Origin: Octopus vulgaris
Lineage: Eukaryota
NCBI GenBank assembly: GCA_951406725.2
Contig: OX597821.1
Span: 61,256,001-61,320,000, forward strand
Length of the DNA: 64,000 nt
Direction of reading: 5' to 3'
The notes below the pieces were generated by a model. It made no database searches. It had not been told where the DNA came from and was given only the letters and a program-made list of their open reading frames with translations. Of this stretch, positions 22,387 to 63,433 are shown piece after piece. The translations under genes and the position numbers were made by a program. Positions within the stretch are counted from its first letter, which is position 1. Every line of letters begins with the position of its first letter.

Positions 22387-22742
22387 TATATATTAGAAGA
22401 AATGAGGTAATCAGAAGATCGGATGGTTCATATTTATAGATATTTATTTATATATTACATTTTTTACATATATATATCATATCATTCAGATCATATCATT
22501 CAGATTATTAGCGCTTTCTCCCATTCCAGTGGGGTTTTCAAATCAAACTGATTTGATTTGAAAACCCCACTGGAATGGGAGAAAGCGCTAATAATCTGAA
22601 TGATATGATCTGAATGATATGATATATATATGTAAAAAATGTAATATATAAATAAATATCTATAAATATGAACCATCCGATCTTCTGATTACCTCATTTC
22701 TTCTAATATATAATACCTGTACATCATCTCCAAACCTTCCAA
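22387..22742 (+). mobile_element. Perfect 326-bp palindrome (22387-22712) plus 30-nt tail between (TA)n tracts; HHR-like motif in each arm
   Basis: The axis is caaatcaaa-ctga-tttgatttg and I saw no mismatch between the arms. Confidence 0.85.
22551..22596 (+). ncRNA. Hammerhead-like motif with U3-A8 core (mirror 22503-22548, minus strand)
   Basis: gat TTGAAAA c ccca ctggaa tggg a GAAA gcgc TA ataatc. Stem III is the palindrome AGCGCU. Stem I is weak and 10.1-11.1 is mismatched. Confidence 0.55.
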
Positions 22743-22792
22743 TATATATATATATATATATATATATATATATATATATATATTTATAAATA

Positions 22793-24051
22793 CAGTTGCG
22801 GCCAAAGTGTTCAGAACGGTATTGTTTTCGTCAGAAAAGTAAATATACGTTTTTATTAAAGTAGTTTTATATTCTATAATTTTCCCAGACAATAAATACG
22901 ATATTAATTGGTATTGTCTGAGAATTTGGTGTAATTTGAGTTTATAATACAATAGTTATGGATGATATAGTGATTTACTACAAAACCCATGGTGGCCAAA
23001 ATGATCAGAACGGTTGAAAAAATAACAAAATAATCAAAAAGTGACTGAGAATGCTGGAATTATTTCATATTTAGTGTGAAGCCCTTTAGCTTCAATCAAA
23101 GTTTGACACTTTTGACTGCACGGGGAAATTAAATTTTCAATTTCTTGCTGGGTGATCTTATTCCATTCTTCCTGAAGGGCATTCCATAATTGCTCGGTTG
23201 TTTTAGGATTTCTGGCTTTCAAACGTTCTCCTAGAATATTCCACACATTTTCAATAGGATTGAGGTCTGGGCTTTGAGCAGGCCAATCCATAACAATAAC
23301 CTTTTCAGCCTTGAGGAAGTTGGTGACCACCTTAGCCTTGTGACAGGGGGTATTGTCCTGCATGAATATAGGTGGTCGCTTAGTTGAATTTCTCAGCACG
23401 GGCAAGACATGATCTTTTACAAGTTGTTTATAAACTCCTGCATTTACCTTTCCATGTAATCGCAGCAAAGGGCCCACAACATCTCCAGATATCATCCCCC
23501 AAACCATGACACTTCCTCCACCGAATTTAACACTAGTCTTAAGGCATTTAGGTGACAATTTTTCACCTGCTTTTCGACGAACGTGCCTTTTCCCATCTGA
23601 GCCAAATAACATAGACTTAGATTCATCACTGAAATGCACCGTTTGCCATTTTTCTTGAGACGACAACACATGTTCGGTTGCAAAGGTAAGACGACACTTT
23701 TTATTCTTTATTCACTGCAGGTGCTCTTGCTTGTAGGTCATGTTCAACTAAACGACGAGACACAGTTTTTCGAGATAAAGTTTTCTTCAGTACAATGCTC
23801 ATTTCCCGAAAAACAGCAGCAGCAGTTTTAAATCTGTCCTTTTTAACCAAATTTACCATAGCACCATCTTCTCTCTTGGTCGTTTTTCTTGGCCTACCTG
23901 TAGACTTTCTTGCTTTACACGAACCTCAATCATCGTAGACCTTAAAAATACCGTGAACAACACTTTTTGACTTGTTAACAATCTTTGCAATAGACCTAAT
24001 ACTTAAATTATCCTTCTTTCGAAGCTTAATAATCTGCTGTCGAATTGGTAA
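22793..24051 (-). mobile_element. Tc1-family DNA transposon, 5'-truncated, with IR/DR-type end
   Basis: The terminus is TA|cagttgcggccaaagtgttcagaacggt, with an inner direct repeat ggtggccaaaatgatcagaacggt at 22991-23013. It contains the transposase relic. Confidence 0.9.
23034..24051 (-). pseudogene. Tc1 transposase (DD34E), disrupted by a stop codon and frameshifts
   Basis: Motifs FSDESK, SVMVWG, QDNTPCH and WPAQSPDLNPIENVW, with 34 residues between D and E. The N-terminal HTH (LSIRSIAKIVNKSKSVV) and GRPRKT lie upstream, beyond a stop codon. Confidence 0.92.
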
Positions 24052-24173
24052 CATACATACATACATGCATACATACACACATACACACACACACATACAT
24101 ACATACATACACACACACACATACATACATACATACACACATACACACATTTCTCTTATTTCTTTTGCCACAT

Positions 24174-24233
24174 GTATCACTGACGAAGAGAGGGCTCTTA
24201 GTAGCTAACTCTGAAATCGGCCCGATATGGTAT
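24174..24233 (+). ncRNA. Type I hammerhead ribozyme, canonical core; predicted cleavage after AUA at 24227
   Basis: gtatca CTGACGA agag[18 nt]ctct GAAA tcgg c ccga TA tggtat. Confidence 0.85.
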
Positions 24234-24677
24234 CAATGGAATTTTTTAGAAATTTCTGTCGACCTTTTTTCGAGTAGCGTGCGTAGTGTGAAATAATTAT
24301 ATGGTTAATGGACAATATGTCCAATTTTTCGGCATATTTGGCATTAGAATTTTTTTCCTTTGCCCTCATTTATGAATTGTTTATAAATTTAACCGTTAAA
24401 GGTATTTTTTAATATGCTGGCCATTGATAAAATTTTTTTCGAGAAAATATTTTTTTTCAAAAAGAATTTTATCCTCACATTTGATATAAATTTAAGCGTT
24501 CGCTTCCGAACTAACTAACTCACTCTGTGAGAGCCTCAGTTCACATCGCACGTGCCTCGAATGGGCTGGAGTATTTCTATTTGGGGATGTATTTGGGGTA
24601 CTTAGTTGTGCCCATGACTTAGTATTTGCTTCTTCCATGGGTATGAGTAAGTATCTCATTTATTTCTTTTGTCACAT

Positions 24678-24737
24678 GTATCACTGAAGAAGAGAGGGCT
24701 CTTAGTAGCTAACTCTGAAATCGGTCCGATATGGTAA
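24678..24737 (+). ncRNA. Type I hammerhead ribozyme, canonical core; predicted cleavage after AUA at 24731
   Basis: gtatca CTGAAGA agag[18 nt]ctct GAAA tcgg t ccga TA tggta. Differences from copy 1 fall at N7, the stem III loop base and the distal stem I pair. Confidence 0.85.
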
Positions 24738-61800: not shown

Positions 61801-62166
61801 TTCGTAATGTAAGTTATAGTGTTCTGCTAACAGTTTGTTTTTACCAGCCGAGTCATCTTCACAAAGAAATTTCTACGTAACATAGGCCACGCGCTCAACT
61901 CGAGTTTTGAACACAGTTTATTTCCTATAAATTTGATCTAATACACTGGCAAAAACCTTTTTGATTCCCAACATTTTAGTTAGCAAATTATATTCTCACA
62001 ATACATTGCTTATAAAATAAATTTCAATTTATGCTCACATTTTCGATGAAGAAATGTGTATTCGACAAAATAGTATGACGTCCGAGACATCAGTGAAATT
62101 GAGTCTATACTGAAGCCATAAATAAGGTGGAAGAAAGGAATTCTATCCAGTTATTTTATACTTATA

Positions 62167-62395
62167 GAAGGTGAATTGCTTAGTGGCTAGGGATATCGAC
62201 TCATGATCGTAAGGTCATGAGTTCGATTCTCCGCGGTGCTTGTGTCCTTGAGCAAGACACTTTATTTCACGTTCTTCCTTCCAGTCCACTCAGCTGGCAA
62301 GTGAAAGGGCCAGCCTTGTTTCATTCTGTGACACACTGAATTTTTCTGAGAACTACGTGAAGTGTACGTGTGTCTCTTAATTTCACGAACAAGTT
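62167..62395 (+). mobile_element. SINE family C
   Basis: tgcttagtggctaggg...gagttcgattctc (B-box)...gtgtccttgagcaagacactttatttcacg. Confidence 0.8.
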
Positions 62396-62825
62396 CTTAG
62401 TCTTAAGAAATAACAAAAATTATGTCGGAAAACAGCTTACACGTGAAAGACAACTGCTTCTGTATGGCACATCGAATAGGCACATAATATTCACTCAGAT
62501 GAGTATTGCATACAGCTGAATTAAAATTCAATCCTTCGTCTTTGGAAAGTGATTATATATTTGATGGACAAGATATCCTGAAGATCACTAGATAGATCCC
62601 ATAAAAGATTAAAGATGTAAAACTTATATACACATATAATATAAATGTATGCATGTTTGTATGTATGTATATATATATATATATATATATATATATATAT
62701 ATATATATAAAGTAACAAACCGAGGAAAAGAAATCCATCAAAGGGGTGTGTTTAGCATCCAATTCCCTGATATGTCAGTTGGATACCATATAAATATTGG
62801 CATAATTCAATTATAAAGATACATT

Positions 62826-63172
62826 AAATATAGAGATATACTATTGACAATCCAATAATTTATTTATATTACAATATTACATTAAATACTATGAATATAA
62901 TATGATATAGCATAACATTATATAGCATAAATATATATAAAAACCATAAAAGGTCAACAAATTGCTTCCACTCATATATATATTTTCCTGATATACATAA
63001 TCACAGTTTCCTTATAAATAAAGTCACTTCAGGGTAATGGTTTATAAAAAGACGAAATCCTTTTTATAGTTTTTATAGTTATTTATGTTGTATAATATTA
63101 TATTCATTGTATTTCACGTAATATTGTAATATAAATAAATTATTGGATTGTCAATAGCATATTTCTATATTT
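62826..63172. repeat. Imperfect inverted repeat (arms ~62826-62953 and ~63059-63172) between (TA)n tracts
   Basis: ctattgacaatccaataatttatttatattacaatattac and its exact reverse complement. Confidence 0.85.
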
Positions 63173-63396
63173 ACCTTTATATATATATATATATATATAT
63201 ACATACGTACATACGCAACGCTTATCAATGTGTGTGCGTATATATATGTATATATATATATATATATATATATATATATATATATATATATATATATATA
63301 TATATGTATAAGGATGAAAAGGGACACACGAGTTGATATATATGAAAAAACAATTCAAGATAAAAAAATGTTAAAATAATTTTATATAGAACATTT

Positions 63397-63433
63397 CAGT
63401 ACCGGTTTTGGTCATTTGAGACCTTTTCAACTG
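63397..63433 (-). ncRNA. Minimal hammerhead-like motif, U3-A8 core, G12A-mutated
   Basis: cag TTGAAAA ggtc tcaaat gacc AAAA ccgg TA ctg. All stems pair and stem III is the palindrome ACCGGU. It lies ~90 nt from a (TA)n tract. Confidence 0.6.

What the first reader, a model, noticed from the sequence alone, without database searches (positions are those of the whole stretch)
22558..63430. The hammerhead core 3-8 pair occurs in three Watson-Crick states in one window
Seen: the cores read C(U/C)GANGA (13.3, 19.3, 22.26, 24 kb), GUGAACA (33265-33271) and UUGAAAA (22558-22564; 63424-63430 minus strand). Known: positions 3 and 8 form a tertiary Watson-Crick pair in the active hammerhead, and compensatory swaps retain activity. 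Inference: the double changes G3-C8 and U3-A8 in independent families point to selection for ribozyme function, and standard CUGANGA searches would miss these families.
Basis: partly seen in the sequence, partly recalled or inferred. Interest (0 to 1): 0.75.

Follow-up and report, generated by a model that had tools for sequence, protein, structure and literature searches.

The report
Four-state core pair in Penelope hammerheads
Jumping-gene families in this animal genome carry small hammerhead RNA motifs whose two partner core letters occur in all four matched pairings and rarely mismatched, which likely means the elements are selected to keep cutting themselves, although cutting is untested.

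Summary
Observation confirmed. The motifs are type I minimal hammerheads in 3'-end fragments of Penelope-like retroelements (PLEs). The variants are family states: G3-C8 in 84 of 100 listed copies of the 33.2-kb family, none C3-G8; U3-A8 in 32 of 33 and 28 of 28 copies of the 22.5- and 63.4-kb families (core-biased). A descriptor blind to positions 3 and 8 gave 28 hits in 1.2 Mb of evenly spaced sequence, 26 Watson-Crick, against 1-2 in controls. Elsewhere in the genome a fourth state, A3-U8, is common, and one ORF-bearing PLE family splits into A3-U8 and G3-C8 subfamilies. U3-A8 is published for PLEs; natural G3-C8 and A3-U8 were not found in my searches, but three key papers were unavailable. 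Selection is inferred for PLE lineages, not these copies (the 63.4-kb copy has G12A). Independent origin of the two U3-A8 families is unresolved. Cleavage is untested. This scan noted G3-C8 families in this genome before (four notes).

The parts
33257..33310 (+). Type I minimal hammerhead, G3-C8 (core 33265-33271, extra nt 33272, helix II 33273-33293 with one mismatch, GAAA 33294-33297, near-palindromic helix III, U17 at 33303, 7-bp helix I)
   Evidence: family state G3-C8 in 84 of 100 listed of 420 matches
33186..33239 (-). Mirror copy of the G3-C8 hammerhead (core 33225-33231)
33160..33445 (.). Short ORF-less PLE-type 3'-end element in inverted arrangement (arms about 33160-33241 and 33255-33336; 3' extension to about 33445 on the + arm only)
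22550..22596 (+). Type I minimal hammerhead, U3-A8 (core 22558-22564, helix II 22565-22580 with C10.1/A11.1 mismatch, GAAA 22581-22584, palindromic helix III, A17 at 22590, short bulged helix I)
   Evidence: 32 of 33 distinct copies U3-A8 (query held the core)
22503..22547 (-). Mirror copy of the U3-A8 hammerhead (core 22535-22541)
22387..22712 (.). Inverted pair of 3' ends (161-nt arms, 100% complementary) of a young PLE family whose RT + GIY-YIG ORF ends about 1290 nt upstream of the hammerhead in L290
63397..63433 (-). Type I minimal hammerhead, U3-A8 (core 63430-63424), decayed copy with G12A at 63409; palindromic helix III, A17 at 63400
   Evidence: family lies about 620-710 nt 3' of a PLE ORF
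13346..13384 (+). C3-G8 (U4C) hammerhead, core 13350-13356; mirror core 13320-13326 (-); inverted arms 13239-13437
19275..19335 (+). C3-G8 hammerhead, core 19281-19287; mirror core 19227-19233 (-)
22254..22289 (+). C3-G8 (U4C) minimal hammerhead, core 22258-22264; most frequent of the 10 families counted (18 hits in 1.2 Mb, 18 of 18 C3-G8)
24174..24233 (+). C3-G8 hammerhead, core 24180-24186
24679..24736 (+). Second C3-G8 copy, core 24684-24690, 504 nt downstream, 95% identical over 140 nt
33045..33155 (+). Fragment of the 63.4-kb PLE family lacking the 5' half of the hammerhead, directly beside the G3-C8 element
   Evidence: 33088-33155, 84% identity

Best explanation
The motifs are type I minimal hammerheads at the 3' ends of several Penelope-like retroelement families, and their core pair 3-8 is C-G, U-A, G-C or A-U depending on the family, likely because the active elements are selected to keep the catalytic fold. 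Shown: the folds, the family states, the covariation, and the link to an RT + GIY-YIG ORF for the two U3-A8 families of the window and for G3-C8 and A3-U8 families elsewhere. Inferred from published work: two motifs would pair through the palindromic helix III and cut after N17, processing tandem or read-through PLE transcripts, probably slowly. The 3-8 pair is a contact of the active conformation, so the lineages would have moved between states by compensatory double changes (C-G to U-A, U-A to A-U, A-U to or from G-C). The window copies are 5'-truncated insertions that are no longer under this selection.
For: Family states: 33.2-kb family 84 of 100 listed G-C, 14 single changes, 2 U-G, 0 C-G (hand count; 420 matches). 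Only 4 genome-wide exact matches have both positions changed, none C-G. Unbiased sample: 26 of 28 hits Watson-Crick (18 C-G, 6 U-A, 2 G-C), controls 1-2. With U3 and A8 both forbidden, 3 of 9 combinations can pair, yet 93 of the first 100 listed of 1577 matches pair (69 A-U, 20 C-G, 4 G-C; control 31, hand count). One family: 83 A-U, 10 G-C, 7 unpaired or wobble in 100 listed of 115 (hand count). With 3 and 8 masked, all 24 A-U copies fall in one clade apart from all 10 G-C copies (support 87.4/73). Contigs from three organism labels show A3G and U8C in matching numbers (17/18, 15/15, 13/14). Clusters: 16 of 19 have a Watson-Crick majority, permutation mean 6.6, 1 of 100000 as high (clusters are related). 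ORF links. Biochemistry in print: C3G or G8C alone abolish cleavage of a PLE hammerhead and the double mutant partly restores it (PMC11167929, passages).
Against: No cleavage was measured. Copies of a family are clonal, so copy counts overstate the evidence; by hand parsimony the protein tree needs only 3-5 double changes. The subfamily split has moderate support. PLE minimal hammerheads cut poorly in vitro (PMC4209133), and in one PLE cleavage was not needed for insertion in vitro (PMC11167929). U3 with A17 (22.5- and 63.4-kb families) and G3 with U17 (33.2-kb family) could form a competing pair like the C3-G17 trap (PMC3884650); this is my inference. The 22.5-kb family has a 10.1/11.1 mismatch and a weak helix I. 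The 33.2-kb family showed no ORF, and its copies keep the whole motif rather than starting at the cut site. 3 of 19 clusters had no Watson-Crick majority. Predicted minimum-energy folds match the hammerhead clearly for only 1 of 6 monomers folded.
Confidence: 0.75

Rival explanations
1. The hammerhead fold is kept as a structure that the PLE protein recognises or that positions reverse transcription; the variant families cut little or not at all.
For: Copies of the 33.2-kb family contain the uncut motif and begin about 23 nt upstream of G3. In one PLE, uncut RNA was the main insertion template and catalytic mutants inserted normally (PMC11167929). Possible U3-A17 and G3-U17 traps; 10.1/11.1 mismatch in the youngest family.
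Against: The 3-8 pair belongs to the active conformation and was not seen in ground-state minimal structures (PMC3884650). G5, A6, A9, G12-A14, A15.1-U16.1 and a non-G N17 are kept in the BLAST-collected families, as expected for catalysis.
Confidence: 0.18
2. The paired states are chance: a few master elements fixed double mutations by drift and were amplified, so there is no selection on the pair.
For: Only 3-5 double changes are needed on the tree. G-to-A with C-to-T (G-C to A-U) combines the two commonest changes: 3 of 4 double-changed copies are A-U.
Against: Every inferred change lands on a Watson-Crick state, including U-A to A-U, which needs two transversions. In the mixed family the doubles form a subfamily with its own diagnostic bases and single changes are rare. 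Of the 3 exceptions, one is a tie in a family that is C-G in 6 of 7 sampled copies, one a local duplication, one an AT-rich repeat with inconsistent stems.
Confidence: 0.06
3. The variant motifs are chance matches in AT-rich, palindromic repeat DNA, or decayed CUGANGA copies.
For: The 7-mers are common. A loose G3-C8 pattern gave 372 matches against 139 controls, most listed rows being an unrelated repeat without helix II.
Against: The structured descriptor gives 28 hits against 1-2. The families are fixed for the variants, sit where PLE hammerheads sit, and the G3-C8 core is unchanged above 5% in contigs of three organism labels.
Confidence: 0.01

Closest known systems
Minimal type I hammerheads in PLE pseudo-LTRs, including the U3-A8 variant of Schistosoma mansoni Cercyon elements (Cervera and de la Pena 2014, PMC4209133; read main text parts 1-3 of 4 and supplement parts 1-2 of 3)
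   Same: Type I layout, short palindromic helix III, optional extra base between A9 and 10.1, position 3' of an RT + GIY-YIG ORF, mostly 5'-truncated copies, pairs on opposite strands; U3-A8 reported with about 1,300 hits.
   Different: In the 56 representatives of its Fig. S3, by my reading, 53 are C3-G8, 2 U3-A8 and 1 U3-G8; none is G3-C8 or A3-U8. Here all four Watson-Crick states occur in one genome and two within one family.
Natural hammerhead core variants (Perreault et al. 2011, PMC3088659; passages read)
   Same: Reports C3-G8 covarying to U3-A8 in nature, U4C, and a tolerated 10.1/11.1 mismatch.
   Different: The passages read name only U3-A8 at this pair; the purine-at-3 states were not mentioned.
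Engineered C3G/G8C rescue mutants (PAc Poseidon PLE hammerhead, PMC11167929; PMC3884650; review PMC8495972; passages read)
   Same: The G3-C8 pair partly restores cleavage lost by the single mutants, also in a PLE hammerhead.
   Different: Laboratory mutants, not natural families. That any Watson-Crick pair keeps activity (Przybilski and Hammann 2007) is recalled; the paper was not held.
Small dimer-cleaving hammerheads of PLEs (Lunse, Weinberg and Breaker 2016/2017)
   Same: Short helix III, association with PLEs and dimer cleavage, as cited in review PMC6765202 (passages read).
   Different: The paper was not held, so whether it lists G3-C8 or A3-U8 could not be checked.
Non-LTR retrozymes (bioRxiv 10.64898/2026.07.22.740005, part 1 of 5 read)
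   Same: Non-autonomous, type I hammerhead, proposed to derive from PLE pseudo-LTRs.
   Different: Retrozymes are tandem arrays; the 33.2-kb family was seen as single or inverted copies.

Membership tests
Type I minimal PLE hammerhead (Cervera 2014) | Core CUGANGA with C3-G8 (or the published U3-A8) | tested here: not met
   Met by the C3-G8 and U3-A8 families; not met by the 33.2-kb family (G3-C8) or the A3-U8 families. These are variants that keep the pair but not its identity.
Type I minimal PLE hammerhead (Cervera 2014) | G5, A6, A9, G12-A13-A14, A15.1-U16.1 and H17 kept | tested here: met
   Majority state in the family alignments; the 63.4-kb window copy itself has G12A.
Type I minimal PLE hammerhead (Cervera 2014) | Helices I and II flanking the core in type I order | tested here: met
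   Helix I 7 bp and helix II 5 bp in the 33.2-kb family; 3 and 4 bp in the 63.4-kb family; helix I only 2 bp plus a bulged extension in the 22.5-kb family; helix I sequences differ but pair across A3-U8 subfamilies.
Type I minimal PLE hammerhead (Cervera 2014) | Short palindromic helix III | tested here: met
   Six-base palindromes in the 22.5-, 33.2- and 63.4-kb families and in the G3-C8/A3-U8 families elsewhere.
Type I minimal PLE hammerhead (Cervera 2014) | G10.1-C11.1 pair | tested here: inconclusive
   Met in the 33.2- and 63.4-kb families (the latter often G-U); C/A mismatch in the 22.5-kb family.
Type I minimal PLE hammerhead (Cervera 2014) | Self-cleavage after N17, as a dimer | not testable with these tools
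   Needs in vitro assay; only contigs were available.
Penelope-like element, C-terminal EN type | Single ORF with RT and C-terminal GIY-YIG upstream of the hammerhead | tested here: met
   22.5-kb family: L290 580 aa, RVT_1 E=6e-10 and GIY-YIG E=8e-6, both above cut-off. 63.4-kb family: GIY-YIG E=0.0045, below cut-off, 41% identical to the L290 ORF. Second G3-C8 family: homologous ORF in 6 of 12 fetched copies.
Penelope-like element, C-terminal EN type | ORF for the 33.2-kb (G3-C8) family | tested here: not met
   No shared upstream sequence or ORF in 30 core-independent loci or in 7 motif copies from the sampled stretches. It is filed as a PLE-type non-autonomous element, not as an autonomous PLE.
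Penelope-like element, C-terminal EN type | 5' truncation, inverted terminal copies, 3' extension at one end, microsatellite targets | tested here: met
   features as described in PMC8557442 (passages).
Neptune clade of PLEs | CX2-5CxxC linker before the GIY-YIG domain | tested here: met
   C-x4-C-x2-C in L290 and L072; motif definition from PMC8557442.
Neptune clade of PLEs | Phylogenetic placement with reference Neptune RTs | not tested
   No reference PLE proteins were fetched; the tree holds only this genome's elements.
Non-LTR retrozyme | Tandem repeats each holding a type I hammerhead | tested here: not met
   Variant families in the window occur singly or as inverted pairs.

The most novel reading that the evidence does not exclude
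PLE hammerheads in this lineage self-cleave with all four Watson-Crick pairs at 3-8. G3-C8 and A3-U8 are the first family-fixed natural examples, reached by repeated compensatory double changes including a double transversion, and on the order of ten thousand motifs in one genome are invisible to standard hammerhead searches.
Probability: 0.5. Interest if true: 0.62.

Novelty: new variant of a known kind. Interest (0 to 1): 0.48.

Why it matters
The 3-8 pair was found by crystallography and rescue mutants; in the papers I could read, nature had shown only C-G and U-A. A genome with all four states, two within one family, is a natural covariation test of the active conformation. It argues that PLE hammerheads, whose role is doubted because they cut poorly in vitro, are under selection for the catalytic fold. 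It also gives matched natural pairs for kinetics. In practice, descriptors should read N3-N8 as any Watson-Crick pair: 8 of 26 paired hits in the unbiased sample were not C-G. It does not reveal a new mechanism.

Tried and rejected
Rfam at gathering thresholds: 0 hits. A loose genome-wide G3-C8 pattern: 372 matches against 139 controls, most listed rows an unrelated repeat without helix II; 6 other single matches fetched showed no convincing helix I; the pattern was useful only because it exposed the second G3-C8 family. A window hit with A3-U8 at 25544-25550 (-) and two non-paired window hits were rejected as weak AT-rich matches; no A3-U8 family query matched the window. An A-U cluster in L077/L090 is the antisense strand of the 63.4-kb family, and a G-A cluster has inconsistent stems; both rejected as hammerheads, the G-A cluster still counted as a miss. 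Search for an autonomous partner of the 33.2-kb family: none in the loci; the matches came without flanking DNA, so their upstream sequence is unseen. Sequencing runs: no RNA holder listed; contigs say nothing on expression or cut sites. Minimum-energy folding of monomers and dimers was not decisive. No pile-up of 5' ends at the predicted cut site was seen by eye in 30 loci of the 33.2-kb family. Three papers that may report further core variants were not held (Lunse et al., Hammann et al. 2012, Przybilski and Hammann 2007).
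Full report
1. Observation. The three variant cores and the C(U/C)GANGA cores are at the stated places. Each variant core is followed by helix II, GAAA, a six-base palindromic helix III, U and a non-G base, and is closed by helix I in type I order. The bare 7-mers are common (TTGAAAA 36, GTGAACA 9 in the window), so the fold carries the evidence. Four motifs (13.3, 19.3, 22.5, 33.2 kb) lie in inverted repeats and have a mirror copy. The 63.4-kb copy has A at G12, where 31 of 33 aligned rows have G. Rfam found nothing in the window.

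2. The variants are family states. 33.2-kb family: 1413 first-look candidates. With 3 and 8 left free, 420 exact matches; of the 100 listed, 84 are G-C, 14 differ at one position, 2 are U-G and none is C-G (hand count). A pattern demanding a change at both positions found 4 matches genome-wide: 3 A-U, 1 A-A. In 1.2 Mb of evenly spaced sequence the family gave 10 hits at 91.6% mean identity, 8 of 9 scorable G-C, which extrapolates roughly to 10^4 copies. Typical copies have a 5-bp helix II, a 7-bp helix I and an extra base after A9, and one folds to the hammerhead as its minimum-energy structure. 22.5-kb family: 885 candidates, many 100% identical to the window; U3-A8 in 32 of 33 distinct copies. 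63.4-kb family: 985 candidates; 28 of 28 U3-A8. These two counts come mostly from queries that held the core, so they lean to it. A pattern free at position 8 gave 2684 matches against 15 controls, and 97 of the first 100 have A8 (position 3 not shown).

3. What carries them. The 22.5-kb motif lies about 1290 nt after a 580-aa frame with RVT_1 and GIY-YIG above Pfam cut-offs in L290. The 63.4-kb motif lies about 620-710 nt after a homologous ORF (41% identity; GIY-YIG below cut-off). Both have a C-x4-C-x2-C linker, described for Neptune PLEs (PMC8557442); placement among reference clades was not tested. Truncation, inversion, a one-sided 3' extension and (TA)n flanks fit PLE insertions. The 33.2-kb family showed no ORF: none of 30 loci chosen by downstream sequence alone, and none of 7 sampled motif copies, shares sequence more than about 25 nt upstream of G3 apart from its own inverted arm. 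I read it as a short non-autonomous element of about 200 nt; that is inference.

4. Covariation. A descriptor blind to 3 and 8, run on 120 stretches of 10 kb, gave 28 hits: 18 C-G, 6 U-A, 2 G-C, 2 unpaired; controls gave 2 and a mean of 1.0. Forbidding U3 and A8 together leaves 9 combinations, 3 of which pair. That pattern, restricted to one helix III palindrome, gave 1577 matches against 31 controls; of the first 100 listed, all on one contig, 69 are A-U, 20 C-G, 4 G-C and 7 unpaired (hand count). So a fourth state, A3-U8, is common in this genome, though not found in the window. A3-U8 motifs follow PLE ORFs in L306, L309, L310, L323, L327 and L138. A second G3-C8 family follows a PLE ORF in 6 of 12 fetched copies. 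It proved to be one family with an A3-U8 form: 115 exact-flank matches, 0 controls; of 100 listed 83 A-U, 10 G-C, 3 A-C, 2 G-U, 1 U-C, 1 A-G (hand count). With both positions masked, a tree of 37 of 42 copies (5 dropped as under 200 nt; G-C copies over-sampled on purpose) puts all 24 A-U copies and one A-C in a clade without any of the 10 G-C copies (support 87.4/73), and flanking diagnostic bases agree. Contigs from three organism labels show A3G and U8C in matching numbers, and the 33.2-kb core shows no other base above 5% at 3 or 8. Over all fetched DNA, 16 of 19 recurring clusters have a paired majority; permutation mean 6.6, 1 of 100000 as high. The three misses are a tie in a C-G family, a local duplication and an AT-rich repeat. 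Clusters are related and part of the DNA was fetched by motif, so this is not a clean probability.

5. How many events. A tree of 29 thumb-plus-endonuclease sequences from this genome, rooted on a distant element whose C3-G8 state I read by eye, groups the 63.4-kb family (U-A), another U-A group, the A-U families and the mixed family (support 100/90). The 22.5-kb family (U-A) and a C-G family lie outside, in an unresolved order (5.5/50). By hand parsimony this needs 3 to 5 double changes, one being U-A to A-U, two transversions with no wobble intermediate.

6. Mechanism. Shown: fold, position, family states, covariation. From print: the C3-G8 pair belongs to the active conformation (PMC3884650, passages); single mutants abolish and C3G/G8C partly restores cleavage in a PLE hammerhead (PMC11167929, passages); palindromic helix III points to dimer cleavage at low rates (PMC4209133; PMC6765202, passages). 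Inferred: selection acts on the transposing lineages and keeps the catalytic fold, most likely for processing of tandem or read-through transcripts (confidence 0.75). The copies themselves decay: 16 of 100 differ at 3 or 8 in a family about 8% diverged. Against strong activity: possible U3-A17 and G3-U17 competing pairs (my inference from the C3-G17 trap), a 10.1/11.1 mismatch in the youngest family, uncut motifs inside the short elements, and the report that cleavage was not needed for PLE insertion in vitro. A non-catalytic structural role is the main rival (0.18).

7. Known and new. U3-A8 is published in nature (PMC3088659, passages) and in PLEs (PMC4209133). Among 56 representatives in that paper's Fig. 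S3 I count 53 C-G, 2 U-A, 1 U-G and no G-C or A-U. Searches pairing 'hammerhead' with G3-C8, U3-A8/U3A8/G3C8, A3-U8/A3U8/'positions 3 and 8', C3-G8, mutant names and core 4-mers returned no natural G3-C8 or A3-U8; passages of PMC10085705 and PMC8495972 gave none either. Three relevant papers were not held, and figures are not searchable, so prior report remains possible. That any Watson-Crick pair supports cleavage in vitro is recalled, not read. Four earlier notes of this scan report G3-C8 PLE families in this genome and one reports core variants in a phage; their summaries do not mention A3-U8. They are not independent support.

8. Verdict. A real feature and a new variant of a known kind. 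The result fits existing structural work rather than overturning it, and cleavage is untested. Interest 0.48.

Noticed in passing
window 13239-13437, 19204-19310, 22387-22712, 33160-33336: In four different families the centre of the inverted repeat lies only about 8-25 nt 5' of core position 3, suggesting a shared stop or start point just upstream of the hammerhead.
   Followed up: partly
L094-L123; L198, L217, L226, L235: The G3-C8 family of 33.2 kb has a near-constant 5' boundary about 23 nt upstream of G3 and looks like a roughly 200-nt non-autonomous element that keeps its hammerhead uncut.
   Followed up: partly
L311-L317 (G000:C1 about 20.002-20.005 Mb): Tandem array with about 359-nt period, each unit with a C3-G8 type I hammerhead, part of the array inverted; retrozyme-like. 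Similar motifs recur at other places on the contig.
   Followed up: no
window 13350-13356 and 22258-22264: Both C3-G8 families mostly carry U4C, a core variant known from a viroid (PMC3088659); seen in 9 of 11 sampled hits of the 22.26-kb family.
   Followed up: partly
window 23034-23711 (-): 225-aa frame matching the DDE_3 transposase domain (E=1.5e-14), a Tc1/mariner-type DNA transposon remnant (family label recalled).
   Followed up: no
L043, L178, L179, L220 and window 22565-22580: Several PLE hammerhead families in this genome have a mismatch at 10.1/11.1 (U/U or C/A) instead of the usual G-C.
   Followed up: no
G000:C1:81358895-81362864 and C1:94758533-94762847: Pairs of 63.4-kb-family motifs about 4 kb apart (same strand in the first, opposite in the second) may bracket full-length elements; not fetched.
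   Followed up: no
window 33045-33155 and L089: The G3-C8 element sits directly after the 3' end of a 63.4-kb-family copy in the window and in L089, and the two families share a helix II loop motif; nested insertion or kinship is untested.
   Followed up: no
window 42036-42099 (-): Copy of the 22.26-kb family with a deletion that removes GAAA and the cut site.
   Followed up: no
window 7661-8537: Inverted repeat with 246-nt arms, 97% complementary, 385 nt apart; not examined.
   Followed up: no
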